Source of the DNA: Marsupella aquatica
Taxonomy: Eukaryota > Plantae > Marchantiophyta
Assembly: GCA_973895155.1 (NCBI GenBank)
Contig: OZ316892.1
Span: forward strand, 25,939,233-26,003,232
Direction of reading: 5' to 3'
Length of the DNA stretch: 64,000 nt
Translations under genes and position numbers: made by a program
Notes under the pieces: model-generated
Seen by the model: the letters and a program-made list of their open reading frames with translations, nothing else
The model's database searches: none
What the model was told of the DNA's origin: nothing
Shown: one piece after another, positions 1,461 through 57,104 of the stretch
Layout: each line of letters opens with the position of its first letter
Numbering within the stretch: position 1 is the stretch's first letter

Positions 1461-1640
1461 CCTGACCTTAGAATCCAGTTGTGTAAAGCCAATACACATA
1501 AACTCCCAAATATGTTTTTCCTTTAAATAGAATTCAAATGTTTAGATCTAATATTGTAATATCTAGAGTAGTGCTTATCAGTATGCACATCAGCTGAACA
1601 ATTTTTAAATGTTTTTGGATGCAGAGATCCTTTTGCTACC

Positions 1641-20810: not shown

Positions 20811-23800
20811 TTGGAGAGCAACGAGGGAGGGGAAGGCGTCGTGCGACCAGTCCACTAGTACTCTCTCCGAGGAAAGGAGAGAGGGGAAAAGAGAGGGGGC
20901 CCCACAGGAGTAGTAGTAAGATTCCCTACTCTCCCATTCTCTCTCGTTCTGTGTGTAGTCTGTCGAGGAGCAATGCAGAGCACAGCATGGCGATGGGACC
21001 AGGCAAATCGGACAGGAGCGGGGATTCTTGCGAGAGGAGGAAATTATTCCTCGTCACGACGACTGCCTCCGTCTCCTCCGTCTCCTCCTGCTGATGCTGC
21101 TGAATTGCTTCCTCGTCCCGCTATGGCTTTTTGCTGTTTGTTTGTTTGTTGGCAATTTTGCTTTGTCTCGTGCAGGATGGAGCTTGTACGAAAATCCGTG
21201 CCCTGCTATTAATAATGGAAGATGATGAGCCTTGATGGAAGCAGCAGAAGCCCTTCCCTCCTCCTCCTCTCCTGCACAGTCCGGACTCCGGAGCTCCTCT
21301 CGTCCACAGTTCCACAGTTCCACAGTTCCACGGTCTACTCCGTGCGTGCCTAGGATGGAGCGAAGCGTGCATGTCTGCAGAGATGAGAGCGAGTGATGAG
21401 AGCGGAGTGGGCGTCGTCTACGCGACTCGGCATTCCCACCAGACCACCATAGCTTTTTTTCCCCTCCTGCCACTGGCATCGTTATAGCCGAGGACGGCAT
21501 CCGAGGCCAGCACGGCCGGGCGCAGAAGGAATTGGACATTGGTTGCTTCAGGCCTTCAGGCTTCAGCCTTCATGGCATGAAGTGCATGCTCTCTCTTGTT
21601 GGGAGCGCTCTATTGGAGCGTCCGTGCCACTGGAGAGCGACGAGGAGTAGGTACACTAATGAAGAAGTTCACTAACTTCTCTAACTCCAGCCGCTCTTCG
21701 GTCAGTAGTAGGTCCGACTGTCCGCCTCTGTCGCTCGCGAGTCCCGACGACGAGCTACAATATTATTAGTTGGTCTCCCGGAGCCCTACGGCACGTAGCT
21801 CACTGTGCAGGTAGCTTTCTGAGATCCATCTTTCGTGGACAGCAAAAGCTGTTCACGGACAAACTCGGGGCTCGGGGTCTGCTTTGACAGCAGATGTGTT
21901 GCAACCTTTGTTTGCATCCTTCCCGCGGTTTCGACGAGGATCGGCCGCAGCAGCAAGTCAGGGATCATCGAAGGAGCTGTGTGTGCTGGAGGGTGTGGCG
22001 ATTCTCTCAGGGCAAGGGCAGGACTCGTGTCGTAGCAGGAAGGAAGGAAGTAGCACCATTGAGACGAGTCGCCTCCGCCGTCATGACCCCCTGAACTGGA
22101 CGCTTCGTGTCTCCATAGCAGTCAACTTATCTGAGAGGCAGCAGGGAAGGAAGAAGACCGTCCAAGGACGGAGAGGTGCGAGCAAATGTGAATAGCTGGG
22201 AGAATGCGCCAAGGGAGGAGTCGACAGATGCTTCTATGAGAGTTCCGAAGTTGAGACCTTAGACAAACTGTGAGTGGAACGAAAAGTTGAAGGAGTTGTG
22301 CGTCCGGTAAAGGCGGGTCCCTCCGGAGGCGATTCGAAGGCTCCTGACTTGGAGTGTGGTCCTGGTGTTTCGTCCTGGGGCAGGCTTGTGTCAAATAAGC
22401 GGTCCGGAGCTGGAGGTTGACATCGCTTCACACTTGGTCGGCAGTTTAGTGTGGAGATCATCGTTTGTCAGTGAACAGGGGCACCGTCAGGGTTCTTGCG
22501 TGTCTTTCTGGGGGTGTCATTTTCTAGTGGTCAACGTTCTGAAGCTCAATCTGGGACACTTCTACACTTTCCATTGAAAGATTAACTTCACATATCCTAA
22601 CACGGCGACAGTCGCGTCTATCGGCAATCTGTACGCGAGGAAATTCAAACGATAGTGCCCTTTATCGTAGCGAGGTTGCGCAAGATATGGTTGGAATCCG
22701 TTTAACAACGTCATCAGGGTCCTAGATTCGTCAATGCGTTCCGATTTACATTGAGCTGCAACGGGCTCAAGTTGGAGGTTCGTCCAAGGTGAGGCTCTTG
22801 GATTTGTCTTCCATCCCAGACTCTACAGTTGTCGGAGTACCGGTATGAATACGCATAGACACCTTGGGTTGCGTAATCTGCAGGGAGCAGCCATTCTCCC
22901 CGCAGAATAGTCGCTTCATTCGGGAGATGGCTCGTGTGCTACGCCTCCATATCCGAAGTAGCCCTCATGAATGATTTACTTCATCCTAGTGGTTGACTAT
23001 GTAGCCTCGTAGTTTGCCTTAGGTTTCTTCGTCTGTGCTTGGTTTGCCTTCACCTTGAGTTATCCGGGCGAAGTCGGATAGGTTGAGTAGTTAAGTTCTT
23101 CACGGAGCTCTCCCCTCTCCGTACGGACTCCCAGTACGGGTGATCTGTGGCATCAGGTCACGAGCATCCCGATTGAGTTCTTCGTTCCGCGAAGACGAAC
23201 TTTGAACCTGAACACTTCTTACAGTCGTGGACGGCTCCATCCGGAGAGGGGACTTTAAGTCAATCTTTCTTTGAAGTTTCAGGTATGCTAATTTTTGGTT
23301 GGGTCGAGCTTACTTGTGGGACTCTTACTTTTGTACCTTTTTGTGGATTGCCCTGTCGCATTCTTGTGGCCCGGTGATCTGCTTGAAGCGAATTGTTGGA
23401 GGGACCTGTCCGTCAATGAATTGATAGGAATCGTGTCAAGATTTAGTTCAATTTCTTGTGGTGGTAGAAACCAGTACATGATTGATAGATGTTACAGCGC
23501 GTCAATTATGAGATCTTTCGTGTCTTGGTCGTGATCATGCTTTCTCTTTTCGCGGACTTGGATTTTCTCTCGTCGGCACAGTAGACCGTTGTGTTCTTGC
23601 CTTCTTATTCTTTCGACGCTTTGGATTCACCTCCCGAAGACGTCTGATTCTCAGTTCTCCTCGACTTATTGGCGTTTTCATCCCGCACACCCGTCATCAG
23701 ACAGTCTTGTAGTTACGGATCGCGCCGGGCAAAGTTTGTAGGAGCCTGAAGTTTAAGAAGCCTGAAGTAGTTTTTAGAGATTCTGCTTTGTGGGAAGCTT

Positions 23801-34444: not shown

Positions 34445-34919
34445 TGTTGGGTATTTACTCTTACGTCTAGGTTAGGTATGACGTGGTTGGTACAACAACG
34501 TGGGTTGGTACAACTACGTGGTTAGGTACAACTACGTGATTAGGTACAACTATGTGGTTAGGTACAACTACGTGATTAGGTACAACTATGTGGTTAGGTA
34601 CAACTACGTGATTAGGTACAACTATGTGGTTAGGTACAACTATGTGGTTAGGTACAACTAAGTTGCACACTATATCATAAGAGGCATGTGTGCTTGGAGA
34701 GGTAGAACCAAGGCTCATTGTTATGGAGCCACTTGAGAGATAGGGAGAGCTTACACTGTGGAGACTCGGTATAGCCGACGGGCTTAGAGTTCAGTAAAGC
34801 TCTCTTGTGTGTTCCCGTGGACGTAGCCTCAAGGAGGTGAACCACGTATCTCTTGTGTCGACTATTGTGCGTTGGATGGTTCATGGGCTTGCCGTTGCGA
34901 TCGTCGTCTATGCTCAACA
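34445..34919 (+). repeat. 5' LTR of copia element
   Basis: TGTTGGGTATT...GCTCAACA, matching 40574-41048. Confidence 0.97.
34470..34660. promoter_or_regulatory. 18-bp tandem array in the LTR U3 carrying MYB AC-element-like and ACGT-core motifs (also at 40599-40789)
   Basis: About 10 copies of G(G/A)TTAGGTACAACTA(C/T)GT. The regulatory role is inferred. Confidence 0.55.
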
Positions 34920-34921
34920 AT

Positions 34922-34933
34922 TGGTATCAGAGC
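34922..34933 (+). other. Primer-binding site, initiator tRNA-Met
   Basis: TGGTATCAGAGC 2 nt downstream of the 5' LTR. Confidence 0.95.
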
Positions 34934-36073
34934 ATGCTTGGGAGGTGACGTGTGTTCGTGACGGGATTTCATGACGGTTTTTCCAGCGTTGAGTGTTGGT
35001 GGATTTTCCAGAGTTCCATCGCATGGAACTTGGAGTTTATGGGCTCAACGGATAGATCAGGGCAAGAGCTTTCTAACGGTGTGAAGAAATCGTTGAACGG
35101 AGCTCGTGGTGCAGAGAGATCTAAGTTTTCGTCGTTCTGGATTTTGTGAAGAAAGTTGGCAATCGACTCGGAGGGAGAAGCGTCAAGTGTTTTGACTCAA
35201 CGGAGAGATTGAGGCAAGACGATTGTTTTTGAGTCCGGGATTGGCTCTTTGATGCAAAGAGGAAGGCTAAGCAAAATCAATTACCTTGTTGGACTTGGTG
35301 ACGGCACCAAGTGCAATTGATCAACATTCGTTGTTGACAAGGTACCATTTTTTTCTCTTTGAAAAACTGATTCGAAATTGGCTATGGCAATTGAGAGAAA
35401 TCTGTCATCTTTACCAATTTTTTTCTCCCTCGTTCTTTCCTTGTTTTGGGTGCTTCTTATATCGATCTTCATCGCCTCGGAGTCTAGTTTCCAAATCTGA
35501 AATCGGATCTTGATTTAGTCAAAACCCGAGTGAGATATCTTGCGTTTGGTGTCGAGGGGTACATTCTGCCGTGTGTATTTTCTGCGCGCGCGACCAGATT
35601 TCGACGACGAAGGGTGGTAGGGGGTTTTGGGGGTTCGAGGACACATGTCAGCCCCTCGATTGTTCTTCCAAAATTCCCACAGGGCCTGTACAAGGGTCAT
35701 AGAATATTCCAAAAAACCAGAGAGCTATTTTTTGACCGTCCGACAAAGATTTCATCCACCGAACGGTAACTTTTTTGGTTATTTTTCGGCGAGGTCGTAG
35801 CCATTGAAGTTGGCAATGCAGCGCACCAATCACATCGCAATTCCGACAACGGGTTGTACTTGGTATTTCGGTTATTCCCTGAGGTGGTCAAAACGGGGGA
35901 GTTTCCCAAGGTTTTACCCACCTCGACCGAAATTTGAATAACTTTTCCGTCAAATTTCGATTTTGATTTCGGTTTTCAGTATTGGACTCCTAGCTTTGTG
36001 GGCTACGCGGCGGTGTTGAGTTTCGAGTTTTTTGAGAAGTTGTGAAAAACAACATTTTTTGTGACTTTCTCAT

Positions 36074-37108
36074 ATGAGTGATTCGGAGGAGTTTTTCGAA
36101 GACGTGGAACTTGAAGCACGAGGGTCACCGCGGAGGTTTCAGGGGCAGAGAGAGGAGCAGGAGGAAGAGCACGTGACACCAATACCATCACCGGTGCGGC
36201 GTGTGGTGGAGGAAGCAGTACTACTACCGGAGCTCACGGTAAAGAAGAAGATGGGGACTTTCAAGCTTGGGGGACCCAAGTATGAAGTGACAAAGTATGA
36301 TGGGCGCTCTGACTACTTGCTATGGGAGAAGCAGGTGAAGGGAGTGCTTTATGCGTCAGGGATGGGCCAACTGCTGAGCCCTCGTGAAGACGATGTTGAT
36401 GAGAAACAATGGGACCGCATGCAGGAGCAGGGAGTGTGGTGTGTTACACTCTATCTCATGCCTCCCATCATCAAGCAGTTGGGTGCACATAAGGATTGCA
36501 TGTCCTTATTTGCGGAATTGCAGAGCAAGTATCACCGCAAGGAGTTGTCGAACCGGCTCTACACTTCCTACAAACTGATGAGTTTCAGGATGAAGGAATC
36601 TGGTACGAAGTTGCAAGACCATGTGGATGCTTTCAACGACATGGTCGTTGACTTGGAAAACCTTGGGGAGACTTTGAATGATGAGACGAAGGCTCTGCAG
36701 CTTCTTAGTTCATTGCCTCCATCTTACCAGTCCCTATCACGAGTGTTGTTGCATCGTGATAGGGATACCATTTCATACAATGACGTGGTAAGTTCTCTGC
36801 TTAGTGATGATCTTCAGCAGAAGATGCACATCACGTCACAGCCTTCATCATCTGGTGCTGCCCTCAATGTTAACCGTGGGAGGAGTATGCAGCGACCAAC
36901 TGGGGACCGTAGAACCCAGTTTAGATCTAAATCCAGATCTAAGTCCAAGGGTAAATCCCCTCAGAGGAGGCAGGTGACATGTTGGAAGTGCAACCAAGTT
37001 GGACACTTCAAGCGAGACTGTAAGGGAAAGGCAGCGGAAACTTCATCGGCAAATGTGGCTAGGGCTGATGGAGAAGCTGATTTACTCAATGATGAGTATG
37101 TTTTATGA
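36074..37108 (+). CDS. gag: Copia Gag with CCHC zinc knuckle
   Basis: KYDGRSDYLLW, LLSSLPPSY, CWKCNQVGHFKRDC; ends at TGA 37106-37108. Confidence 0.92.
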   Translation: MSDSEEFFEDVELEARGSPRRFQGQREEQEEEHVTPIPSPVRRVVEEAVLLPELTVKKKMGTFKLGGPKYEVTKYDGRSDYLLWEKQVKGVLYASGMGQLLSPREDDVDEKQWDRMQEQGVWCVTLYLMPPIIKQLGAHKDCMSLFAELQSKYHRKELSNRLYTSYKLMSFRMKESGTKLQDHVDAFNDMVVDLENLGETLNDETKALQLLSSLPPSYQSLSRVLLHRDRDTISYNDVVSSLLSDDLQQKMHITSQPSSSGAALNVNRGRSMQRPTGDRRTQFRSKSRSKSKGKSPQRRQVTCWKCNQVGHFKRDCKGKAAETSSANVARADGEADLLNDEYVL

Positions 37109-40100
37109 AGCCGGGGGTATGCCCTGTGCACGTCATCTAGGAGAGCAGATGATGTGTGGATTCTTGATTGTGCTTGCTCTTTTCATATTTGTTACATTCG
37201 TGAGTTTTTTCAGTTCTTACTCTGTTTCAAACGGTTCAGTTCTGATGGGAAATGATCACTCCTGTCAAATTGAGGGAATTGGGTCTGTGAAGATTGAAAT
37301 GTTTGATGGCGCTGTGCGCACAGTGTCCGGAGTCAGGTATGTACCTGGCATGCGTAAGAATCTGATTTCACTCGGTGTGTTGGATTCAAATGGTCATCAA
37401 TGGAGCGTTATTGATGGTGAACTTCAAGTCAGGTCGGGAGAGACAGTGATTTTGAAGGGGAGTAGACAAAAGAATTTGTATGTGTTACAGGGCAATACTG
37501 TATGTGGAGAGGCCAATGTAACCAAGTCTCACGAGGAGATGACTCAACTGTGGCATTCACGGCTAGGCCACATGAGTGAGAAGGGTTTGGCTATCTTACG
37601 GAAGAATGGACTCATTTCTGATTTGCAATCTTGTAAATTAGAGTTTTGTGAGCATTGCATTCTTGGAAAGCAGCATCGTCGTGCTTTTGGTGTTGGAACT
37701 CATCGTTCCAAAGCGGTTCTTGAGTACATACATAGTGACGTGTGGGGTCCATCCCCGACTCCCTCACACTTTGGAAAGTTGTACTATGTATCATTTATTG
37801 ATGATTACTCAAGATTTGTGTGGATTTATTTCATGACGCATAAGTCTGATGTCTTGTCCATTTTTAAGAAGTGGAAGGCCCAGGTGGAGAATCAGACTGG
37901 AAACACGATCAAGTGTTTGGATACAAGGGTGAAGAGTCTGAGGTCAGACAACGGCGGGGAGTACACTTCAATGGAATTTGAAGAGTACTGTTCAGAACAG
38001 GGGATAACTCGCCATCTCACCACAGTTTATACTCCGCAGCAGAATGGTGTCGCTGAGAGGCTCAATCGGACACTGTTGGAGCGGTCACGGAGTATGTTGA
38101 GCCAATCAGGTTTACCACAAGAATTTTGGGCAGAAGCTGTCAATACCGCAGCTTATTTGGTAAATCTTTCTCCTTCTAGTGCTATCAATTTCAAAACGCC
38201 GTTTGAGATGCGCTATAAGCGGCAAGCAGACTATCATGGCTTGGTAATTTTTGGAAGTGATGCATATGCTCTCACACCAAAGCAAAATAGGACCAAGTTG
38301 GATCCTACCTCCAGGAAATGTGTTTTTCTTGGGTACCAGAGTGGTGTGAAAGCCTATAGGCTATGGGATCCTATTGCCTGTAAGCTCGTTGTCAGTAGGG
38401 ATGTTTCCTTCAATGAATCCAGATTATTGAAGGAGGGGGAGAATACTCAGGTCTCCCGTACTGACAAAGGAAAATCTCCTATCCCGGATCTCGTTGAGGG
38501 GGAGATTGGTTATGAGGTGCATGACCGGAGAGAAGGAGTTGCTCCAATTATGGAGCTGGTTCCTGTGCCAGAGGAACCAGAGGAGTTTGTTGATGCTGGT
38601 GAGCAGCAAGTGGATGCTGTTGAGCTTCAAATTGTACCAGCACACGCAGATCAACCGGAGTCATCGGCTAGAAGAACATCTGGTCGCACTGTACGCGCTC
38701 CATCAAGGTATGGACAGTGGGTTGATTCATCTCAACTGCAAGAGGATGATTTTACAGCTGATGATGAGGGTGATGCGTTAATTTTGGAAGAAGGAGAACC
38801 TTCTTCATTTCATGAGGCAAGTGCTTCAAAGGAGAAGCAGAAGTGGACTGCAGCAATGCAAACGGAGATGCAGTCACTAAAGGACAACAAAACTTGGGAG
38901 CTTGTTAAGCTGCCTAAGGGTCAGCAAGTGGTGGACAACAAGTGGATTTACAAGCTGAAGGATAATTCCATAGGAGGTGGATCGAAGGTCTACAAGGCTA
39001 GATTGGTAGCAAAGGGATTCACACAAGAGAAAGGTGTGGATTATAATGAGGTCTTCTCACCAGTTGCTAAGTACTCTACAATACGACTATTGTGTGTACT
39101 TGTTGTAATGTTTGGTCTGCTCCTAGATCAGATGGATGTTGTCACAGCTTTCCTCTATGGCACATTGGAAGAGGTGATCTTCATGAGACAACCGCTAGAT
39201 TTTGTGAAGAGAGGACAGGAGGAATTGGTTTGCAGATTGCTGAAATCCTTGTATGGGTTGAAGCAGTCACCAAGACAGTGGAACAAGCGGTTTGACGATT
39301 GGATTCGGTCACAAGTTTTTCACAGAAGTGTATTTGACCCTTGTGTGTATTTGAAACCGGTGAAGAATGTTATCTTTGGGTTCATTGTTTTAGTACTTTA
39401 TGTGGATGACATGCTAATTGCAGCCAAGGATAGGTCTGAGATTGTTAAGCTCAAGGCACTGCTTAGTGCAGAGTTTAAGATGAAGGACTTAGGGCCAGCT
39501 AAGAGGATTTTGGGTATGGAGATCACTAGGGACTTGGAGGCTGGCAAGCTATGGTTGACGCAGAGCAGTTATGCGAGGAAGGTAATTGCAAGGTTCAACA
39601 TGGAGAATAGCAAGCCAGTAAGTACCCCGTTGGCTCCACACTTCAAGTTATCATCAGCGTTCTGTCCTACGGATGACACAGAGAAGGGGTTGATGTCAAA
39701 GGTTCCATATGACAAGGCAGTGGGGAGTCTCATGTATTTGATGACTTGCACTAGACCTGATCTTGCCATGGCTATGGGCAAGGTGAGCAGGTACATGTCG
39801 AATCCAGGGAAGGTACACTGGGAAGCAGTGAAGTGGATTATCAGGTACTTGAAGGGTACCGTGGATCATGGTCTTTTATTTGATGCGAATGCAAAGAATG
39901 CTAGATCATTGATTGGCTATGTAGATTCTGACTATGGACAAGATTTGGACCGAAGGAGATCAACAACAGGATACGTGTTCACACTTGGCGGTGGATGCAT
40001 AAGTTGGAGGTCTACTTTGCAGAAGTGTATTGCTCAGTCTACTACAGAAGCGGAGTATGTTGCAGCTGCGGAAGCAGCAAAGGAAGCGATTTGGTTGGAT

Positions 40101-40382
40101 AGACTTATCACTGAAATGGGATTGCCACAGGGGAATGTGAAGCTCCATTGTGATAGTCAAAGTGCGCTCCACCTTGCTGTGAACCAGGTGATGGACAGCA
40201 GAGTGAAGCACATTGACGTCAGGTACCATTTTATCAGGCAGGCTGTGTCTGATAATTTGTTTGAGCTAGTCAAGATTGATGGTAAACTCAACCCGGCTGA
40301 CGCATTTACCAAAGTGATTCCTTTGGAGAGTTTCTCTAGACACCGTGACGTATTGCAGGTTTTGCAATTGCATCACAAGTAG
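37109..40382 (+). CDS. pol: Copia Pol (PR-IN-RT-RH); protease motif lies in the gag frame after the TGA, then a +1 shift at T6 (37205-37210)
   Basis: WILDCACSFHIC (gag frame), WHSRLGH...CEHC, HSDVWGP, LRSDNGGEY, QNGVAER, KARLVAKGF, LYVDDML, GYVDSD, KHIDVRYHF. Confidence 0.9.
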
Positions 40383-40562
40383 AGTTTTCTTAAACATTCA
40401 TTGTAATTACTGATATATGCTCTTCCTCATTCCTATGTATTAGGCTACGGCTTAGTTCTGGTTTGCTCTAGTTAGAGAGGGAAACCGGTTTGGTTTCTGT
40501 CCAGAACTTCCCGCTGAGGGATCATATACATTGGCAGTATTACTCTCCCCTAGACCAGAGTC

Positions 40563-40572
40563 AAGGGGAAGA
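40563..40572 (+). other. Polypurine tract
   Basis: AAGGGGAAGA just upstream of the 3' LTR. Confidence 0.85.
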
Positions 40573-40573
40573 T

Positions 40574-41048
40574 TGTTGGGTATTTACTCTTACGTCTAGG
40601 TTAGGTATGACGTGGTTGGTACAACAACGTGGGTTGGTACAACTACGTGGTTAGGTACAACTACGTGATTAGGTACAACTATGTGGTTAGGTACAACTAC
40701 GTGATTAGGTACAACTATGTGGTTAGGTACAACTACGTGATTAGGTACAACTATGTGGTTAGGTACAACTATGTGGTTAGGTACAACTAAGTTGCACACT
40801 ATATCATAAGAGGCATGTGTGCTTGGAGAGGTAGAACCAAGGCTCATTGTTATGGAGCCACTTGAGAGATAGGGAGAGCTTACACTGTGGAGACTCGGTA
40901 TAGCCGACGGGCTTAGAGTTCAGTAAAGCTCTCTTGTGTGTTCCCGTGGACGTAGCCTCAAGGAGGTGAACCACGTATCTCTTGTGTCGACTATTGTGCG
41001 TTGGATGGTTCATGGGCTTGCCGTTGCGATCGTCGTCTATGCTCAACA
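40574..41048 (+). repeat. 3' LTR of copia element
   Basis: Appears identical to the 5' LTR at a constant 6129-bp offset. Confidence 0.97.
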
Positions 41049-44315: not shown

Positions 44316-47300
44316 ATGCCGGCGCTTAAACTGCTTTCGGTATGGTCAGTGGTTGGATTTTTCGTCGTCATCAGCACGCTCTGCATTAGTTCAACAGGCG
44401 GCACCTCGCTGAGGACTGGTTCCGCTAGCTTCGATGTTCAAGGTGCGTTTTCTTTCCGAGAAGAGGTTTCATGTTTATTCGTATTTTCACATTTTAGCCG
44501 AGATTCCAAGTTGTTCGTATTTTTCTTTCTCTGTGCACTCAGAGAAAGAATGGATCGTCGGATGTCCATTGCACTGGCTAAGTACTATTTGTAATCTGTG
44601 ACCGCAATTGGTTAACACGAGCTTACGTTACGCAAACCAAAAGACCTCACAAGAGGCAAGTTTAAGGACTGTAAAGATGACCGTTTCGTGTATTTCGCGT
44701 CTGAAGGTGTTCTTGTGACGGGGCCTTTTCAGACCGAGTGCAACATGTCACGTTTCGTTCTGTTGGGGTGTTTCAGTTGCTCTAAGTTCTGTGACTAGAA
44801 AGGTTCGGAAGCTAGGGTTTAGGGCAATTAGAAGCGTCCTACTTTTTGATCAAATCAGGAGAGTGTGGAGGGTTTTTAAAAAGCTGCAATTGGTCCAGCG
44901 GTTTTGTTATGTAAACCACTGAAGGGTGAAAACAGGAAGTGAAGTACACAAACGCATAGGATCGTTCATCAGTGCAACGGGTTTAGGGTTCACCCACCGC
45001 TGAAATTTTAAATTAAACAACATATCATAAGATTAGAGTTGTCGGTCTGCTTACGAACATAGCTGAGGATCTGCACATTCATGAAGGTGAACTTACGTGC
45101 TGACTTACGCTCTGTTTTGCAGACATAGGGGTTAACACCACTGTCACTTTTCAACCCGTCTACTTGGAAGGGTCTGATGATAGCGTGCCAGAAATTGTGG
45201 CGGCAAGCCGAGTGCGCATTCCCGGCTGGTCCAGACTCCAGCATATAGACAAGTTTCATCACACTTTCCGAGTCAAAATTCAAATTGCTCCCTATCGAAG
45301 TCTGGCCTCCGATTCCAGAGTGTATGTCTGCCTTGATCAGTAAGTTGTCTTCTTCTCCCTTTAGCGGTTTGTTGCTTGTCGATAGACGAGTCAGGGTTGG
45401 ATGAAAATAGAATTCTGTGTCATTTTGGATTTCTTGGAGCACTTTTTGGGGTTATAAATACCATGAAAGTAGGGGACCAATTGTCTACATGCCGTGTTAT
45501 TTTTGGCAGGGATCCGCTGCGGAGCCTGGGTGATTGTAGAAATGGAACCTGGCGAGCCATTGAGAAAGGAGGATCTTGGACTTTCAGTGTGTCTCCCTTC
45601 CAGGAAAAAGTTGTTGACATCTGGGTGACAAAGTCCTTCTCTGCCCCAGCCGTAACTGTCTCTGTACAAGATGGTATGTTCATCTACATTTTCTAGACAT
45701 GACCAAACTTTGGTCCTTCCCTTTTGAATTGCCTTCAGATGTGTGAGCAGTGTTGATTGTCCTAGGCTTGCAGAAATTTTTTTGAAGCTTATGTTTCAAG
45801 CAGTGGTAACGTGGAATAGGACGTTGCATTACATTTGTGCATGCTATTTGGGGATCGAAGTTCGTGTTTCTTACGTCTTCTGCTGTTGTCATTTTCATTT
45901 GTTGCAGAAAAAAGTTCATTCCGGCTCATATTTCTAGGGTTAGGAGTGATCTTGTTGGTGCTGGCCCCCATAGTCAGTGGATGGGTGCCCTTCTACTATG
46001 GAACGGCAATGACACTGGGCATCTTAATGGTTGTTATTGTTATTCTCTATCAGGTACGTGATTTTGACTTTCAAATCCACCAGTGAATCGATCATTTGAC
46101 CGTTCTCAAATGTATATTGAATATTAGCATGGTTTTCTATTGTAGATTTGGTCGACTTTCTTCAACATTTCTGTTTAATATATAAAGATGCCTGGGATGG
46201 CCTGGTCTCAGTATCTTGTATACCTTCCATTCATATTTTGAGTTTTGAAAGCTTTTTACTGGCGGCTTTCATTATTCCTGTGACGAGGTGAATAGACGAA
46301 GAAAAAGTCTGGCGTGTCTCTTTGGTGGATGGTGTTCACTATTATATCTTTAATGCAGACTTTGTCCTAAGGACTCCTGCTTTGATATTCATCTGAATGT
46401 GGGCAATGATTGTCACCTATGCAGGCTATGAAATTGTTGCCGACAGGTCGCAAGAGCACGCTGTACATCTTCCTCTACGGCTCTCTGGTCAGGATATTCT
46501 CCATTCCTTCTCGGCATAATCATTTGTTTCTGTTTTTATACAGTAGTTCCAATTTTTTGGACGTTGGTTTTGTTATACAGTAGATAATTTTGTTTGCACT
46601 TCAGCAGGGGAGTCGATTCACTGGAGGGACCAATGTTTTCTTTGAGTCTGAACATAACTATTGCTTTTCCTCATTACTTGCTCCGTTGTTCGTTTGCAAT
46701 TCCCAGGCGGGCCTCGGGACTGTGGTTCTCCGCTATGTCAGTAGCGTTATAACCGCCGTGTTGTGGGAAATGGGTCTCAGCGATGACATGTACAGCCCTG
46801 TAAGTTTCTCGCATCCTTTTCTTCGAAAAATCGTCACTTTGGGGTCTTTCTTTTACGCACTAATTATTTCTTTAAGACTGCTAATTTCCAATGTATACTT
46901 GTGGGTGGGAGTTGAGTCAGCCCTTGTCTTGTGGTCAAAGTTACTCATGTTGCACGATTGCTTTACAGGTTGCAGTCTTTGTGGGAGTGGGAGTTGCTTT
47001 GCTCGGGGCATGGCTGGGTTACATGGGTGTTCGTAAGCTTGTGATTGCGGAGGACGGAGGTATTGATGACGGGGTTGCTGTGTTCGTTAAGTGGGCTCTA
47101 AGAGTTGTGGGGTCTTTAGCACTGCTTCAGGTATGGACTGTTTGGTATCTTGCATTCTTCTGCATCTAGAGTTTTCCCTTGTTAACGCTGAAGAGTTTTG
47201 AGGTGCTCATCTTCAGCACAATGTATTAATCACCAATTGTTGTATGCTGACATGGAGGATGATGTTGATTGCAGAGCTCAATTGATCCGGTGTTTATGAC

Positions 47301-48412
47301 TCTGGCACTAATCGGAGGAGTAGTCATGTCCTGGATCGTATTGAATGTACGGGTGTCGGTGTTAGACGTCTGGGAGAATATCCAAGACCTCTGGGCGTCA
47401 GAGTATGTTTTCCTCTTGCTGAAAACTGCTTAATGCTGTTTGCACCAGACAAATTGTTTCTCGCTAGTAATTGAGTTTTCTCTGTTGGAGGAACCAAATT
47501 CGTCTTTTTGTCCTCTATTTGAAATGCATGTAGTCACCTTGTTCAATTATTTTCTCAAGATTTTGCAACCTTCTGTGCGTCATGTGTGATTTTTTCAGAC
47601 CCGTCGAAAAATTCAAGCCCAGGCATTCGAAAAAGCATTATATGACTCAGGCACAGCTCAATGCAGTCAAAAGATTACCTGGGACCGAGGCTTTAATCAG
47701 TAGCAAGAAAGCGCTTCACTCTCCAACAACTCGAGGTACGTTTGGTTTCCTTGAAGTTAATCGGCATGTATTTGTCCATCCATGCATCAACTCGCATATA
47801 GGAGCCAGACAACAACACTGCCGATATTTGAGCTCCAATGCTCGTTCTGACTCCGTCAATAGCGAAGCATAATGATATGCCGTCCTGGCTACCAATTGCA
47901 ATTTTCTGCATTGAGAATTTAATCTTTTAACATAGTCTATTTTCGACCAACTTAAACGACTTTATTCCCCCCCCCCAAAAAAAAAGAAAAGAGAGAGAAA
48001 ATCGACATTATCGAGGAAGTCATTGCACAGATAAGAGGGCTTGCTTTCGTGCCGTTGCAAAGCGTTTGGTTTCGTTCTCACGTTGATGAGTTTTGTGTGT
48101 CCAGGTTCGAGAGAAAAGCGGCATTTGAAGACGAATGAAGTCTTCCTCTCCACGTTTCACCATTCACCTGGGTACCGACCACCCAGTAAGCAGGAGTATT
48201 CAGAATTCACGCGGGAATTGACTGGTAGAGCAATTGAAGAACTTATACAATCAGACGAGTTTGACCAATGGAGGCACGTAAACAGACCTAGATTAACCGT
48301 AGAACCATATGAACACCGACAAGAGCGACCAGTAGACGAGATTGAAGGCACCGCTTCACTAGAAGAAGCGGCACCAGGTAGTGGATTGTATTATAGTGGT
48401 AGAAGAAGATAG
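44316..48412 (+). CDS. NEMP1/PNET2-like nuclear-envelope integral membrane protein, ~10 exons (approx. 44316-44442, 45123-45339, 45510-45673, 45908-46053, 46425-46487, 46707-46800, 46969-47130, 47275-47403, 47600-47735, 48105-48412)
   Basis: Signal peptide; LAPIVSGWVPFYYG, MKLLPTGRKS, GAWLGYMGVRKLVIAEDGGID...FVKWA and FLSTFH...EYSEFT...AIEEL...EFDQW; GT-AG junctions. Some boundaries are approximate. Confidence 0.82.
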
Positions 48413-49592
48413 GACTTTCAATTTTGCTGTACATAATGTTTATTTTTGACTCCCCTGGATCGGGAATCCAAGTATACAAGTCATTTAACATTTGCACTTA
48501 GTCTATGGGATACGAATACCTTTGGACGAGAATATCATGGCAGATATCATCATTTGGAGTCAGTAGTGATTTGTCATGGAATGCTTTGCACGCCGCAAGA
48601 GGTCAATATGTGTGAGAAAGGGAGACAGCCGGATTTGGTTTCGGATCCTGGTTCATTATCTTGACGAGTACTATGTGAGAAGCTTACATTTGGTTTGCCT
48701 GTGAGAATAGGAAGAATGAAGGCAACTAGGTGTCAGTACTTCATCCCTCGCTGGGTAACCTTTGTTTGCAAAGTCGAGCAGAGTAGCAAAACTGGCTTGC
48801 GTTGCATTTTTACTACTTGGGTGATGATAGTCACACATCATCCAGACTTTAACTGGAACGGAGTTGCGAAATGATGGACAATATTCTGAATTAACGTTTT
48901 CTCTCACATTTGCTTTCAAAGACGAGTGTAAGTGTCTCTGCCAGGACAAACACACAAGACATATCCATATCATTTAAGGCTTTGCATGGAGTGATAGTAA
49001 TCAACACAAGTGATGGTAACTCCCTTTTGTTGTCTTGGAACTTAAATTAGAGAGAAAGCGGTACGCCTCTTTTCCCTCTTCGGAGCCTGCATCATACGAG
49101 TAAGAGAGACGTGGGATATCTGGGATCCGGAGCCTGAGACATCTTATTGTAATATTTGCTAGCTGGCTTTAAATTTTGGGACCCTCTGGTATATCTAGAT
49201 GTCTGTGATATCAAACATGGAGTTTCAAGGAAAATGTGCAGGTGTGAGAAAATGAACGAACCTAAGCTCTGAAGCATTGGATGCCGATACAATTACAAGC
49301 AGGTCAAGGACACGCTAGAGTCACTACTGTGGTGTGGGTGCACTTACAGTTGTAGGATCGATGCCTCTGTTCTCTATGAATGCTTTGACGGTATGATTGA
49401 CAGATAAGTGGGTCTCAATAAAGAGATTTGGAGTTGACTCTATATTTTACCACTCAACGTGTGAACTGGCACAAATTGATAAATGAAATCATCAATCGAA
49501 AACAAAGCGAACAAGCATATCAGACCAGAACTGTTTAATTTAAATGATCATAGCTACGATCATTGAAGCATAGCGCAAGGAAAGGAATTCAC

Positions 49593-49852
49593 CTTCTGAA
49601 GTCAGGAAATGAAATTTTCATCTTCGGAAAGAATTCTGAAGCCCATGCCTTTCGGAACGAGGACGATGTCTAGCTTGGGCACATCTTCAAAGGAATGGGT
49701 GGCATGGATGGAGAGGTAGCCCAGACGGTCGGAAAACGAGGCCCGATTTGTGAGAAATGAAAACGAAGTCTATTGTAAGGACCGATTGCGATTGCGTCAA
49801 GCACGACCATTCTGTCGACGATGGGAATCGCCACCTGTAGCTTTTTCCCCAT
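49593..49852 (-). pseudogene. Degenerate copy of DJ-1/PfpI exon 1; exons 2-3 deleted
   Basis: MGKKLQVAIPI... is near-identical to 55414-55139 but frameshifted; flanking intron homology is retained. Confidence 0.88.
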
Positions 49853-52006
49853 TTTGTTTGTTTGTTATGGAGAATGGTGTGACTTCTACAACTATAATAT
49901 CCAATCCCGCCAAATTTAGTCCTTTTACAAAAACAGTTCTGGATGGAAATAATCAACAACAGTTGCATTCTTTTGCACCTTTTCACTAACCGTTCAATGC
50001 AAAAAAGGGACCCTTGAATGTGGCAGGGGTACTCAGTCGGGCCTGAGGCAGGGGTACAGCCGACTCCCTCCCTCATATTTGACGTACTCCGCCATGCTGC
50101 CTAGTGCCCAGGAGTGGAGCCTGTATGCAACCTCACCAGTGCCCACGAGACTCCTGCCAGGCCCTCTCTTTCTCACTCACCCAATTGTGCAATTGTGCAA
50201 GGCACAAGCATGGCGCTAGTTACGTCATGATAGCTTACACACTATCCATGAAATAACAGTCTTTCCTATGGAGAATCATGTTTATCGTGCATAAGTGCAC
50301 CCGGTATGATAATATGCTCTGGGTTAACGACAAGCCAGTCATGTAGTCCCCTAACAGTAAAGCGCTTTATAAATGCACCAAAAAAATGCAGTCTGTAAAT
50401 GCAGGTGAACAGTACCAAATGACATGTACAGAAATGCATTTCTATCCATAGTACTGCAGATGTATTTATCAATTACTCCAATGCCTATCCTAGGAGCATT
50501 ATTGATAAATGCAATGAATAACTACATATAATAGTTTCATGCACTTATTTCAGTTGAATTGTGGAGCATGAGGGTTGAGGGTATGAGGAATCCAATGTGT
50601 ATGACCTAGCCTTACATATAAGGAAGTACATCAACACCTATGAAGAAGTGCACAACAATTTTACATGCACTTTCTCCATATGTCTACCAGCAATATCCCA
50701 TGCACTTATGCCATAGTGGATGACATGGATAAGTGCTGGCTTGGGGTGTCATCCTGGGAGCCCTTAGACACAGAAGACTGTACTCCCATAGATATGCAAC
50801 AAGGAAGACTGTACTCCCATAAATATGCAACATCTGAACATGCAAAGAGAGTTTTCACCTTGAGTCCACAAGCAAATGTAAATGCAGGAAAGCAGGTTAC
50901 TCACATGTAAACATCTCTGGCCCTTGCTACCATAATCTGTTGCTCGAAAGTAACCTTTTTCCGGACAAAAGTTACATACTATAATGCATGACAAGGCAGG
51001 AGTTCTAGTTTAACCCTACCCAAGAAAGCTCAAAAATTACTCAAAAATTACTTACTATAATGCATGTATGGGCAGGAGTTCTAGTTGAACCCTACTCCAA
51101 GAAAGCTCAAAAAAATTCCCCAATACCGGTCAGATTTTCTTCACTTTCTGGTCGTCTGATGCATGTCTAGGCAGGGGTCATAGCCTGAACCCTGCTCCAA
51201 GACAGCTCAGGAAACCTTCTGGTCAGGAACTTTTCACTTTCTCATACTAGTAACCGCAGACCGGACCTGCATTATCCTATACCAAAACCATACTTTGATT
51301 TCCGTTGTAGTTGATGTCAAGTACCTGACCGTTTTGGAAAGCATCTAATGTTTTGAGCCTTTGCACAGTTCTGAGGGTCTGTAACACTATAGAGGGGACG
51401 TGAATGCGCAGCGCATCCGGTACTTTCAAGAGACTGATTCTGTTTGCAATACGACTCGTTAAATCTATGTCAACCGTACAATTAGGACATAAACCAAGAC
51501 ACGAGTAGTTCAAATCACTTGGTTTATAGATCATTAATATAGTGTATTGATTTGTGTTCTGGTGTACTATCGCATTAACTTGAAATAGATTTAATTTAAC
51601 ACACAGTTTCGCAATTATGTCCACGTTGTCTAGCTCTTGCTAGTGTCTATTAAAAGCCCAAACCGGCCTTCAATCCCCACTCGCCTATTACAGGGTCTGG
51701 GGCAGTACTGGGACCCAGAACCTTCTCCTTTTAAATGTTGGAATGTGGATATGGAGTAAGTCAATCTCACACTGATGAGTTTTGTGTCCAGGTTCCAGAG
51801 AAATGAAGCATTTGACGACAGATAAAGTATTCCTCTCCAAATTTCACCATCCACCTGGGTACCAACCTCCCAGTAAGCAAGAGTGTTCAGAATTGTCACC
51901 TGAATTGACTGATGTAGCAATTAAGGGACTTACAAAATCAGAGGAGTTTCACCAATGGAGGCACGTAAAAGACCTCGATACCATATTGTTGGAAGTCTCC
52001 ACAACA

Positions 52007-52076
52007 TGGACTGGCTGGGAATTGAACCTAGGACCTCCCTGTACATCATAGTGCTCTACCACTGAGCTGCAGGCTC
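52007..52076 (-). other. tRNA-derived cassette in TRIM LTR (A box + B box)
   Basis: Minus strand GAGCCTGCAGCTCAGTGGTAGAGCAC...GAGGTCCTAGGTTCAATTCCCAGCCAGTCCA. Confidence 0.8.
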
Positions 52077-52200
52077 TTTGTGGGAGCATCCATCATAGTT
52101 CGAGTGTGGTTCATTTTCAACACCTTCCTTTGAGCCACAGTCGTTTCAAGGGAAATTCCTGATCTTTGGCTCTACTACCATGTTGGAACTCTCAACAACA

Positions 52201-52271
52201 TGGCCCGACTAGGAATTGAACCTAGTAACTCCCACGTACGTAGTAGTGCTCTACCCCTGAGCTACAAGCCC
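52201..52271 (-). other. tRNA-derived cassette in TRIM LTR (A box + B box)
   Basis: Minus strand GGGCTTGTAGCTCAGGGGTAGAGCAC...CTAGGTTCAATTCCTAGTCGGGCCA; D-stem GCTC/GAGC, T-stem CTAGG/CCTAG. Confidence 0.85.
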
Positions 52272-53658
52272 TTTGTGGCTGCCATCATAGTTCGAGTGTG
52301 GTTCATTTCCAACACATGAACGCTGACACAAGCAACCAGTAGGAGAAATTGAGGTAACAGTCTCATTAGAAGAAGCGTCTCATTAGAAGAAGCGACACAG
52401 TGGTGGATTGTATTCGAGTAGTAGAAGAAATTGTGCTGTACACAATGCTTATTGACTTCCATAGATCAGGAATCCAAATTTAAAATTTGCACCAAGTTTA
52501 TGGGATATGAATGCTTCTCGGGGTGACAGACATGATCATTTGATGTGAGGAATCAGTATTGATTCGTTGTGAAGTGCTTTACACACGACATGAGGTACAT
52601 ACGCGTCATAAAGAGAAACTTTGTTTCAGTTCAGCTTTGTGGTGGGGGCCCAAAAATGCCTCCAAATCTTTTTTCTGCCGCATACAATTTCTGAAATACA
52701 GTGTACAATACTAGAGAGATGGCATTTGCAACACTGCAGCTTTTGTGACCAAACCTCTTTGGTCAGGGGCCTGGTTTTAATTTAGTCTAGAATAATAGAG
52801 TTCAATCTGTATCTTGAGAAGTTGTAGATGAGAAGCTTTTGGTGCTTTGCCTGTCAGAATAGGAAGACTGAAATCAACAGGCAGCGTACGTCATCCCTCA
52901 CTGGGTAACCTTCGTTTGCAAAGCCGTGCACACTAGCAAGACTGGCTTACGTTGCATTTTGATTACTTGGGTTGATCAATATCAACACATCATCCAGATT
53001 ATCTGGCATCGGAGCTGCGAAATGATGGACAATGTTCTGCATCCACTTTTTCAACGATGAGTGTAGTTATCGAGGCCAGCACACACACACACAAGAGAAA
53101 TCCATATCGCTTATAGCTTTGCATGCAGTGACAGTAATCAACACAACTGATGGTAACTCCCTTTGGTTTTCATGGAAATTTAATAAGAGAGAAAAACGGG
53201 ATTCCTCTTTCCTTTCTTTGGGGCGGCATCATACAAATTAGAGACGTTGGATATCTGGGGATCCGGAACCAGAGACATTGGATATCTGGGGATCCGGAAC
53301 CAGAGACATCCTACTGTAGTATTTGCTAGCTGGCCTTAAGTCATGGGACCCTTTCATTAATGTACATACCTGTGCTATCATACATGGAGTTTCAATGAAA
53401 GTGTGTAGCTGTGAGACGACGACTGAACCTAAGCTCTGAAGCTATGGATGCCGACGCAGGTACAAGCAGGCCAAGCATAAGCAATAAGTACTATGGATGT
53501 GGGAGCACTTAACATTAGCAGGTTCGATGCCTCTGTTCTCTGTGAAAGCGTTGAAGGTATGATTGATAGATGAAGGGGGCTCCAAAACGAGATAACTGGT
53601 TTCAAGATCATGGGGCTGTTGTTAAGTCCACACAGATACAGTGAGAATAAGGCCTTGA

Positions 53659-55414
53659 TCAGGAATGGGCAGGTTGTTGGCTTGATGCGCCGTTTTCTGC
53701 GGTCCTTTTTGCCGCCAGAAAAGCTTGTGCTGCATTTCTGTTAAAGGCCATTATGGATCGTGCTTTTGCTTCTATTTCTGGTCCAGCTTTAGCCGGAGAG
53801 CCTGCTTCAAACGGTGGTTGTGGGTCATACTCCACATAGAGTTGTACTGCCTTCGCCGTTGTTTCGTCCGTGATTAGCGCGGCCAACTGGAGTGCCATAT
53901 CTATTCCGGACGACACGCCTCCTGATGTGATAATCTTCCCCTGCACACCCACGTCCATTACGAACGTCATCATCATAAGCATCACAGTTAATTAGCTCTT
54001 TCTCATCATATCATTCGAGGAAATTCTCTCTATTACTTGTAATCCGTCTTTCCCATCAAATCATTCAATGAAATTCTCTCTATTCCATGTAATACGTCAC
54101 AATCAACAAGATTTCCTTTTATGCATTCTTCAGCTTCCACATTTTTCTATATGTAAGGCCTGGCCAAAGGATTTTCTTATCCCTCTTCTCTTCAGTACTT
54201 TCAACTATGGCTTGAATGTTTTGGTTCCAAGCTGCTGGATGTGCACCGTCAGGAGGTTTCCAGGAGTTTATTACAAATTGATGACACGCTCAAAAGACAC
54301 GCTCAAAAGTTCTGGGAGGTTTCTCAATAGCCGTCGTTACAAGGTCCCAATACTCAGAGAAAAACTTCCAGGACTTCAAGCGGATCTCTGGTTACGGGAA
54401 GTGGTCGACATTGAGATTCAATTAAACGAAGTCTTAACTCACATCTTGGACAACGCGGCTCTCTGATGGCGTAGCCCCGAACGTGGTTAATTCAGGTAGG
54501 GCGGCCCAGTATGTGGTGGCTGTCACACCCTTCAACAACCCCGCCGAGCCCAGCAACTTAGCCCCCGTGCAGACTGATGTGGTGTAGAGTGTTGTCTCGT
54601 GTGCCTGAGTCCACACGCCACAAAAGACCAAACCATTTCAAACCAAATCAAACTCGTTCAACTAAAAACGGTTCAAATGTAAGATATCTGCATTTCAGTT
54701 TCTGCGTTTCAACTATAATCTCTTAGAAATCTAGTCACTTCGCTTAGATTAGGCTTAAAATCTCATCCATCAATTTTGACGCGTTTTCATCCCTGGGTAT
54801 CCTCTGGACGGGGATTTCAACATGATATCAATCACAGATGTGTGTTTTCTGCATTAATAGCCCTCTGTTGTAAATTGGCCTTCTGCACTCAAGCTCTCTG
54901 TCAGAAATCGACTTCAATCCGTCCGTTCTTTCTTCGAATTAGTCACACTGAGGAGCCTTTTTTGTTGGAGTTGGATCTATAATTTACCCTTCATCCTCTG
55001 AACTGGCAGACTGGAGCTCAAGTTGATACTTGAATCATCAATGGGAAGCAAAACTGTCAAGCGTACAAGATCAGAACTGTTAACTTTAAATCATTATAGC
55101 TACGATCATAGGAACATATCACAAGGAAAGATGTTCACCTTCTGAAGCCAAGAATTGAACGTTTTGTCGTCGGCAAGCACACTGACACCAATGCCACCCG
55201 GAACGAGGACGATGTCAGGCTTGGGCACATCTTCAAAGGAATGGGTGGCATTGATGAAGAGGTAGCCCTGACTGTCGGAAACGAGTCCCGGTTTGTGAGA
55301 AATGAAAACCACGTCGACTGTAGGGAGCGATTGAAGGATCTCGTAAGGACCGATTGCGTCAAGCATTGTCATTCCGTCGAAGATGGGAATCGCCACCTGT
55401 AGCTTTTTCCCCAT
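53659..55414 (-). CDS. DJ-1/PfpI family protein, isocyanide-hydratase/ThiJ-like; exons 55414-55139, 54604-54443, 53940-53659 (~239 aa)
   Basis: MLDAIGPYEIL, DIVLVPGG, SVCTGA (nucleophile Cys), ATTYW, GGVSSGIDMAL, EYDPQPPFEAGSP; phase-0 GT-AG introns. Confidence 0.92.
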
Positions 55415-57104
55415 TCTGTTTGTTCTGTAGAATTGGTGGACCTGTATTCACATACGGACCGAGTTGTAAATGAGGTAATATTTGAGTGATAGGAGAAGAT
55501 GTGTAAACCCGGGTAGAAATGTTCTCCGACGGTCCAGATGTAACTCTTAGAATGGATTCGCAGGGATAGCTCTTGCTCATCGGAAGGTTTCTCCCTCAGG
55601 TTAGAGACATAAAAAAAGGAAAGCAGGTCGACGAGATGAGAAGACAAGTTAATTCGATAGTGCTGTGATATCAGAAGAAAACCGATGAATTATAATATTT
55701 GTTTTGTAAAGTAATAAACAAGAGGACTTTTATACTTCTATTTGCATTGAAAGGGATTTTCACCAATTAAGAAAGTCCCAGGCTTCGGCAGAATCTACAG
55801 CTTTAGGCAGCTCGGGGTACACAGAAACGTTACGGCCGAGAGGAAAATTCATTCTAACAGAACTGCAGGGTCCGAATGCCGAAAGTCCCAAGGCTTCCAT
55901 TGTGAAGGAAATGCGAGGTTGAAACCACGAGGCAAGCATCTGTTAGAGTCCTCGTGCTTGGTAGTTCTGACGGCGGAGAAACTATATATTAATTGAAACA
56001 CTAGCCGAACAAGGAAGGGAAAGGAAATGATGACCACTTCTCTCCATCGGTCCAAACGAAGACACAGAACAGAGGATTCAAATGAACGGTCCACCGCAGC
56101 ATAAGAAGAAGCAAAACTCTCGTTGTTTAGAACGAACCAAACTCGGTCCGATATGAAAAAACAGAAGAAGCACATTCTTAAGTAGTGGTGCAATGGCCTG
56201 TTGCACAGCAGAGAAATCTAAATGGATGAAATAGTAGAGTACAAATGGTCTTAAAGCTTCTGTACGATAAGATCGGCATCATGAGCTTCAATTATAACCT
56301 GCATTCAACAAAGTTTGCGAGGGGCTCGAAGGTGCGGAGAGAATGTTTCCCGGCGGAAAAAAGGGAAAAACGAGATACGAAGACGAAGAGAATTACTAAA
56401 AGATATGAAGCAGATGACGAGGAGAAACCTCTGCATCAATGATGCTATCGCTAGCCAGAATCAGTGGTGTGCAAAACCAGCACAAATTCTGCCCATTTCG
56501 ACCCCGACAAATCTCCAAACGCAAGACGAATTGCAGGTTGGAACAAAGGGAGATCCAACATCGAAAGAAGCAAAGTAAGCTCAACGAAAGACACCTCAGA
56601 GGGCGACTTAGCAATTACACATTCCGGAAAGACATGCTGCTAAGAATCGTGATAAACCGTTCCCGAGAAGGTGTGAAGGAGGATAACCCGGCCGATACTT
56701 CTGCAACTACAATGGAGACCAACCGAAGTGCCAGTCTCTTCTTCTCACATAATTCAGAACCACTAATGAAACTCCAAACCTTGGATGGAGCACAGGACGA
56801 AGCAATTACAGCTCAACATGGGGCAGAAGGAATTCGAATCAAAGACGGACGAAGCTCTGACGTTCGTAGTCTTTCCGGACCGACAGGCACTAGAAATCTG
56901 ACAAAGTTGTTCTCTCGATCGGGGGTACCAGGAGGATATTGCGGGACGATACGTCAGCATTCGGTGGCCTCACAGCAAACAAACTACCTGTCCTTTATTT
57001 GCCATCAGCGAACCTCCCGCCGCAAACCGAGGTGAACAATGGAACCCATGGAGCTCCAATGCAGTAGAAGCATGCTGTACACTAACAAAATCGACGACTC
57101 GGAC

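What the first reader, a model, noticed from the sequence alone, without database searches (positions are those of the whole stretch)
51987..52314. 328-bp TRIM retrotransposon whose LTRs each embed a tRNA-derived Pol III cassette (tRNA analogue of Cassandra)
Seen: two ~135-bp TG...CA direct repeats separated by a 58-bp spacer. On the minus strand the spacer starts with a PBS 2 nt different from the tRNA-iMet PBS (TGGTAGTAGAGCCA vs TGGTATCAGAGCCA) and ends with a PPT. Each LTR contains a ~70-nt tRNA-like sequence in the element's sense orientation, with A box, B box (GGTTCAATTCC), D- and T-stems but a scrambled anticodon arm. The empty site is visible in the paralogous NEMP exon (CCATAT^GAACAC at ~48305), which shows this is an insertion; the TSD is imperfect (CATAT / CAT-GA). 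Known: Cassandra TRIMs carry 5S rRNA in their LTRs, and I recall other small-RNA-derived non-autonomous LTR groups (Helenus/Ajax) being described. Inference: a Pol III-transcribed SINE/LTR hybrid parasite mobilised in trans by a tRNA-Met-primed partner. The copia in this window also has TGTTG...CAACA termini and a Met PBS.
Basis: partly seen in the sequence, partly recalled or inferred. Interest (0 to 1): 0.8.

Follow-up and report, generated by a model that had tools for sequence, protein, structure and literature searches.

The report
Liverwort tRNA-bearing mini retrotransposon (Helenus)
This is a real but old, damaged copy of a 328-base gene-less jumping element whose two end repeats each hold a tRNA look-alike; the type was described in 2024 as Helenus, and the only new point is that the host is likely a leafy liverwort.

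Summary
On the minus strand, 52314-51987 is a 134-nt LTR, a 58-nt spacer and a 136-nt LTR (83% alike), each LTR holding a tRNA-like cassette. It interrupts a decayed duplicate of the last NEMP exon.

In four public runs the element is a dispersed family. Many different flanks begin exactly at the TG and CA ends, most copies carry a perfect tRNA-iMet PBS, and 13 of 19 LTR-LTR differences are private decay. That excludes a SINE dimer.

This is Helenus (Kojima 2024, PMC10886601), and it meets that paper's definition. The closest family in layout is Selaginella Helenus-1_SMo (325 bp), the only plant one listed. The host is likely a leafy liverwort (SDH1 sister to Calypogeia); my searches found no bryophyte record.

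Pol III transcription and the helper element are inferred. The 5-bp TSD is inconclusive here, and the window's copia is probably not the exact helper. The scan has noted Helenus before, in this genome and in at least five others. New member of a known kind; modest interest.

The parts
51987..52314 (-). Whole element: 328-bp Helenus-type TRIM, old decayed copy
   Evidence: family evidence
52181..52314 (-). 5' LTR, 134 nt, TG...CA
   Evidence: loose ends of other copies at 52181 and 52314
52201..52271 (-). tRNA-derived cassette of the 5' LTR (A box 52254-52264, B box 52212-52222); predicted Pol III start at 52271
   Evidence: Rfam RF00005 29.4 bits; B box position; the start is inferred
52167..52180 (-). 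Primer-binding site directly abutting the 5' LTR; two letters changed in this copy, majority letters of other copies give the tRNA-iMet PBS
   Evidence: 52174 and 52175 differ in about 85-99% of laid depth in all four runs
52123..52180 (-). Internal region, 58 nt, non-coding
52123..52131 (-). Polypurine tract directly abutting the 3' LTR
   Evidence: same position in other copies (loose ends behind 52315)
51987..52122 (-). 3' LTR, 136 nt, TG...CA
   Evidence: loose ends at 51987
52007..52076 (-). tRNA-derived cassette of the 3' LTR (A box 52059-52069 with one change, B box 52018-52028)
   Evidence: Rfam RF00005 23 bits, E 0.038
51982..51986 (+). Left copy of the probable 5-bp target duplication (CATAT)
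   Evidence: matches 48306-48310 in the paralog
52315..52319 (+). Right copy of the target duplication, imperfect (CAT then GA)
51765..52400 (+). Host site: decayed duplicate of the last NEMP exon, part of a duplicated block (48076-49862 versus 51765-55424)
48306..48311 (+). Empty site in the intact NEMP last exon

Best explanation
This is an old, decayed copy of a dispersed family of 328-bp non-coding LTR retrotransposons of the Helenus type, in what is likely a leafy liverwort; active copies are likely transcribed by RNA polymerase III from the tRNA-like cassette in the 5' LTR and likely copied and inserted by the enzymes of a Copia element. Shown here: two TG...CA LTRs, a tRNA-like cassette in each, a PBS and PPT abutting the LTRs, many copies with exact LTR ends in different flanks, an iMet PBS in most copies, independent decay of the two LTRs from one sequence, and insertion into a duplicated NEMP exon. 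Inferred: TFIIIC binds the A and B boxes and Pol III starts near 52271. The RNA runs through the PBS, spacer, PPT and 3' LTR; the element has no run of four T on this strand, so it would end in the flank (first T4 at 51970). The helper particle primes on tRNA-iMet, strong-stop DNA jumps through up to about 90 nt of cassette-plus-U5 redundancy, the PPT primes the second strand, and the integrase makes a 5-bp duplication. The cassette would act as a promoter, not as a working tRNA. This copy, with a damaged PBS, is probably dead.
For: Anatomy. Family: 253 and 152 contigs laid on the 401-nt stretch in runs X3 and X1. Summed depth over the internal region is 1,999-2,671 against 34-37 on the flanks (X3) and 648-943 against 21 (X1); this is not a copy number. 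Loose ends pile up at 51987, 52181 and 52314 (5-12 contigs each, agreement 0.43-0.52, so unrelated flanks; 12 of 190 rows shown). Contigs that extend an LTR start continue into PPT and internal sequence (52315: 6 and 4 contigs). One 822-nt contig holds exactly one whole LTR with unlaid DNA on both sides, a solo-LTR candidate (record 10; 16 of 483 pieces shown). PBS majority letters are canonical in 4 of 4 runs. 13 of 19 LTR-LTR substitutions disappear when each LTR is read with the majority letter. The paper's definition and plant example fit. Host: SDH1 94% to Calypogeia fissa, 89% to Marchantia and Riccia, clade support 96/96.
Against: No transcript or Pol III data. The TSD at this site is imperfect, and no other copy's flanks could be read. 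No listed contig spans a second full-length copy from end to end (contigs break in repeats). 6 of 19 LTR differences were not resolved by majority letters (2 of them lie in an indel). The helper is unidentified, and iMet priming and 5-bp TSDs also occur in plant Gypsy lineages (one search gives 5-bp TSDs for 93% and tRNA-Met for 39% of all plant LTR elements surveyed). X1 may be the source of the window itself.
Confidence: 0.88

Rival explanations
1. An ordinary Pol II-driven TRIM whose LTR once took in a tRNA or SINE fragment that is now only a passenger.
For: Pol III activity has not been shown for any Helenus (stated in PMC10886601). No T4 terminator in the element. Neither cassette folds as a cloverleaf on its own.
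Against: Only 43-46 nt lie upstream of the cassette, little room for a Pol II promoter. The majority letters restore the A box, and no majority change falls in either B box. The cassette fills over half of the LTR, as in Helenus-1_SMo.
Confidence: 0.15
2. Two tRNA-derived SINE monomers, or a local tandem duplication, that only look like LTRs.
For: LTRs are 17% diverged, the TSD is imperfect, and the cassette region draws more depth than the rest of the LTR (up to 9,585 against about 2,000 in X3), so related tRNA-like sequences exist outside this family.
Against: The cassette lies inside the repeat, not at its 5' end. Other copies stop exactly at TG and CA with no common tail, and the spacer is multi-copy with a canonical PBS and a PPT. 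The extra depth can come from true tRNAs or sister families at the 80% threshold.
Confidence: 0.03
3. The Copia element at 34445-41048 of this window, or its own family, is the helper.
For: It is recent (475-nt LTRs identical, TSD GAACT on both sides), has an iMet PBS, TGTTG...CAACA ends and a PPT that also starts TCAAGGG.
Against: No shared sequence beyond these generic motifs (best blastn E 0.26). It has a 2-nt AT spacer at both LTR junctions and the TRIM has none; by general knowledge (recalled) this points to different end processing by the integrase. This TRIM copy is much older.
Confidence: 0.12

Closest known systems
Helenus-1_SMo, Selaginella moellendorffii (Kojima 2024, PMC10886601; main text parts 1-5 of 6 read, supplement part 1 of 11 plus term searches)
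   Same: Length 325 versus 328 bp, short LTRs (120 versus 134-136), cassette in sense orientation near the LTR 3' end, plant iMet PBS abutting the LTR, same last 8 LTR letters. By hand, the two cassette arms match the 3' LTR at 50 of 59 letters and the 5' LTR at 46 of 59. It is the only family in the data file that held all four of the rarer motifs I searched (line breaks can hide matches).
   Different: Host is a lycophyte. U3, anticodon region and internal part (85 versus 58 nt) show no clear likeness by eye. It has a T4 run just before the LTR end, which this copy lacks. Its 5-bp TSD is established; here it is not.
Fungal Helenus, especially Helenus-1_AmAr (Amylostereum areolatum)
   Same: Same layout, zero spacer at both junctions, TGG-type PBS, 5-bp TSD class. 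The 3' arm of its cassette matches the 3' LTR at 30 of 33 letters by hand, slightly more than Selaginella does (28 of 33).
   Different: Longer LTR (209 nt), two extra D-loop letters, long T-rich tract after the cassette, different PBS letters. It shows that cassette likeness is not plant-specific.
Cassandra TRIM (as described in PMC10886601; the original paper PMC2311327 was not held)
   Same: Non-coding TRIM with a small-RNA-derived Pol III promoter in both LTRs.
   Different: Cassandra carries 5S rRNA sequence, is 565-860 bp and has demonstrated Pol III transcripts. This element carries a tRNA-type cassette (no 5S hit among the 5 Rfam matches).
tRNA-derived SINEs (SINE2)
   Same: Internal A and B boxes from a tRNA, non-coding, dispersed.
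   Different: No tail, fixed TG/CA ends, PBS and PPT, and two LTRs: the LTR pathway rather than target-primed reverse transcription.

Membership tests
Helenus (TRIMp3) | TRIM under 1000 bp, no coding capacity | tested here: met
   328 bp with a 58-nt internal part
Helenus (TRIMp3) | Two LTRs with TG...CA ends | tested here: met
   other copies end at the same positions
Helenus (TRIMp3) | tRNA-derived sequence inside the LTRs with A box (TRGCY, YGG) and B box (GGTTC) | tested here: met
   Rfam RF00005 in both LTRs; GGTTC in both; each A box has one private change that the majority letters reverse
Helenus (TRIMp3) | PBS next to the 5' LTR and PPT next to the 3' LTR | tested here: met
Helenus (TRIMp3) | 5-bp TSD (plant and fungal families) | tested here: inconclusive
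   CATAT versus CAT-GA; fits 5 bp with a 2-nt loss or 3 bp with one transition; flanks of other copies were not readable
Helenus (TRIMp3) | Dispersed multi-copy family with solo LTRs | tested here: met
   many flanks at exact ends, one solo-LTR candidate among 16 of 483 pieces shown; copy number not measured
Helenus (TRIMp3) | Cassette is not a functional tRNA | tested here: met
   for this copy only: ARAGORN 0, anticodon arm short and unpaired, no cloverleaf
Helenus (TRIMp3) | Transcription by RNA polymerase III | not testable with these tools
   no RNA holder listed; also unproven for published Helenus
Helenus-1_SMo lineage (common descent) | Homology beyond the tRNA cassette, or a clade in a cassette tree | tested here: inconclusive
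   hand comparison only; a fungal family is as close in the 3' arm
Cassandra | 5S rRNA sequence in the LTRs | tested here: not met
   no 5S match at E up to 10 in 51700-52600
tRNA SINE | Monomer starting at the tRNA head, with a simple-repeat tail and variable ends | tested here: not met
   43-46 nt precede the cassette; fixed CA end with unrelated flanks behind it

The most novel reading that the evidence does not exclude
Liverwort and Selaginella Helenus are one lineage that goes back to the common ancestor of land plants, older than Cassandra and lost from seed plants, or was passed between early land plants and basidiomycete fungi, as the close match to Amylostereum Helenus-1_AmAr would allow. 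Bryophyte genomes would then hold a Pol III-driven LTR parasite that a transformable liverwort could test directly.
Probability: 0.25. Interest if true: 0.5.

Novelty: new member of a known kind. Interest (0 to 1): 0.27.

Why it matters
The element type is published, so this locus is mainly a host record: a second plant lineage for Helenus and, in my searches, the first in a bryophyte. It matters modestly for three reasons. It bears on whether tRNA-bearing TRIMs arose once or repeatedly in plants. Such repeats can inflate tRNA gene counts, as Kojima showed for rust fungi, and the 5' cassette here passes Rfam's gathering score. And Pol III transcription has not been shown for any Helenus, which a liverwort family could allow one to test.

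Tried and rejected
No whole genome is held for this window, so genome-wide copy counts, TSD surveys and a helper search could not be run. A scan of the metagenome collection for B box + LTR end + iMet PBS gave 6 loci; 6 of 6 are bacterial-type tRNA genes followed by a chance match, with no LTR pair. No RNA holder was listed, which is no evidence either way. Parent tRNA: blastn of the 3' cassette against phage records gave 74-79% matches, annotated Thr, Asn or Arg in 17 of the 20 records listed of 420, so no isotype can be assigned. The G3-U70 pair and A73 in the 3' cassette recall tRNA-Ala identity elements (recalled), a hint only. RNA folding of cassettes, LTRs and spacer was not significant (|z| at most 1.4). 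Tandem arrays: some joints go back within the element, but they are ambiguous between the two LTRs, so arrays are not claimed. No empty allele appears among the joints shown (15 of 56, 15 of 29), and X1, X3 and X4 carry the element with no differences. No second copy in the window. No absolute age is given: the two liverwort genome papers searched by term gave no rate. A look-up of earlier notes by sequence found nothing. The Cassandra paper PMC2311327 was not held. The comparison with published Helenus families is by eye on the entries seen, not a computed alignment of all families.

Full report
Observation. On the minus strand the element reads 5' LTR 52314-52181 (134 nt), internal 52180-52123 (58 nt), 3' LTR 52122-51987 (136 nt). 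The LTRs are 83% identical (E about 1e-35), with 19 substitutions in 133 columns and K2P 0.159. Rfam finds the tRNA model over its full length in both LTRs, at 29.4 and 23 bits against a gathering score of 29. ARAGORN finds no tRNA, and the cassettes do not fold significantly. The B box is intact in both. A strict A+B scan finds one cassette, because the 3' A box has one change; shuffled windows give 0.01 on average. The window holds no other copy.

Insertion site. A complete NEMP gene lies at 44316-48409. Its last exon and downstream DNA are duplicated at 51765-55424 with 16-20% substitutions, and the element interrupts the duplicate. The empty site is 48310/48311. The left flank ends CATAT and the right begins CAT then GAAC. 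A 5-bp TSD with a 2-nt loss explains this in one event, but so does a 3-bp TSD with one transition. The TSD is therefore inconclusive. LTR divergence (0.16) is close to the divergence of the duplicated block, which fits an insertion not long after the duplication; this is an inference.

Family. X1 may be the window's source. Depth over the internal region is 31-46 times (X1) and about 54-72 times (X3) that of the flanks; the tool warns that this is no copy number. Loose ends cluster exactly at 51987, 52181 and 52314, with 5-12 contigs each and agreement of only 0.43-0.52, which means many unrelated flanks and no shared tail (12 of 190 rows shown). Contigs that continue past an LTR start run into the PPT and internal sequence. 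One 822-nt contig holds exactly one LTR with unlaid DNA on both sides (16 of 483 pieces shown). At 52174 and 52175 the majority letters in 4 of 4 runs turn the PBS into the canonical plant tRNA-iMet PBS, so the two odd letters are damage in this copy. When each LTR is read with majority letters, 13 of the 19 differences vanish, 5 from the 3' LTR and 8 from the 5' LTR. This is what two identical LTRs decaying separately would give. Limits: no listed contig spans a second full copy, and no other TSD could be read.

Host. SDH1 in the window is 94% identical to Calypogeia fissa and 89% to Marchantia and Riccia, and groups with Calypogeia at 96/96 in a 16-row tree (15 of the proteins fetched were used). 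The only hit for the NEMP exon was also Calypogeia. The host is likely a leafy liverwort, on one gene tree with thin sampling.

Mechanism. Shown: the cis-parts of an LTR retrotransposon, dispersal with exact ends, and a tRNA-type cassette. Inferred from the standard LTR pathway and the Cassandra precedent: Pol III starts at the cassette in the 5' LTR. The element has no T4 run on the sense strand (longest T3; first T4 at 51970, in the flank), so the RNA can read through both LTRs, and cassette plus U5 (about 90 nt) provide the redundancy for strand transfer. A helper supplies Gag, reverse transcriptase and integrase. [quoted passage not shown] Gypsy is not excluded. The Copia at 34445-41048 is recent (identical 475-nt LTRs, TSD GAACT), but it shares no sequence beyond generic motifs and has 2-nt spacers at both junctions where the TRIM has none. 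It is probably not the exact helper.

Comparison with what is known. Kojima 2024 (PMC10886601; main text parts 1-5 of 6 read; supplement part 1 of 11 and term searches) defines Helenus as TRIMs under 1000 bp with tRNA-derived sequence in their LTRs, and notes that Pol III activity is unvalidated. This element meets every defining feature I could test except the TSD, which is inconclusive. The only plant family listed is Selaginella Helenus-1_SMo (LTR 120, internal 85, total 325, 5-bp TSD). By hand its cassette arms match the 3' LTR at 50 of 59 letters and the 5' LTR at 46 of 59, and it was the only family holding all four rarer motifs searched. Against a simple plant-lineage reading: the fungal Helenus-1_AmAr matches the 3' arm at 30 of 33 against 28 of 33 for Selaginella, an oyster family shares the 19-letter 5' motif, and the PBS is set by the host's tRNA. 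Common descent is therefore open. It is not Cassandra (no 5S) and not a SINE.

Novelty. Searches for Helenus with retrotransposon gave 6 papers, 5 listed. Two that cite it were read as passages and add no plant record (PMC13570524; PMC12859917). TRIMp3 occurs in this sense only in Kojima's paper among 6 listings. Liverwort or bryophyte combinations gave 0, 1, 124 and 21 papers, of which 0, 1, 15 and 15 listings were seen, none on such an element by title or abstract start. Gao 2016 (PMC4717578, passages) found TRIMs in Selaginella but none in Physcomitrella, and does not mention tRNA or liverworts. Repbase and subscription journals were not searchable. The scan's own notes list Helenus-like elements in at least five other genomes and a 332-bp one elsewhere in this genome, said to be polymorphic; I did not check these. 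My reading was set before I saw them.

Verdict. The feature is real and well supported as a Helenus-type TRIM (0.88). It is a new member of a known kind in a probably new host group. Interest 0.27.

Noticed in passing
window 51974-51986: On the minus strand the flank right after the 3' LTR reads three letters and then a 7-letter match to the start of the iMet PBS. All letters trace to the host exon after a 10-nt loss relative to the paralog, so it is probably chance, but it sits oddly close to the LTR end.
   Followed up: partly
window 34445-41048: Recent Copia element: identical 475-nt LTRs, TSD GAACT, gag and pol domains in two frames, iMet PBS, 2-nt spacers, short tandem repeat inside the LTR.
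   Followed up: partly
window 52624-52777: Another high-copy repeat of about 154 bp with sharp ends in all four runs, inserted in the same duplicated block; possibly a MITE.
   Followed up: no
window 51500-51587: End of a further high-copy repeat.
   Followed up: no
window 48076-49862 and 51765-55424: Local duplication of the last NEMP exon and downstream DNA, 16-20% diverged, with insertions in the second copy. A DJ-1/PfpI piece lies at 55106-55447 on the minus strand, with a duplicated stretch near 49428-49862.
   Followed up: partly
window 7112-9076: Succinate dehydrogenase flavoprotein gene in one unbroken frame of 654 codons, that is without introns.
   Followed up: no
window 1572-5377: Three long ORFs, one with DUF7869, next to short tandem repeats; looks like a DNA transposon of unclear type.
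   Followed up: no
window 17362-20812: Reverse transcriptase ORF (17769-19829, RVT_1 E 1.4e-6) flanked by repeated blocks at 17362-17840 and 20076-20610; retroelement of unclear class.
   Followed up: no
window 52006-52075: Laid depth over the 3' cassette is several times that over the rest of the LTR, suggesting sister families, SINEs or tRNA genes that share the cassette.
   Followed up: no
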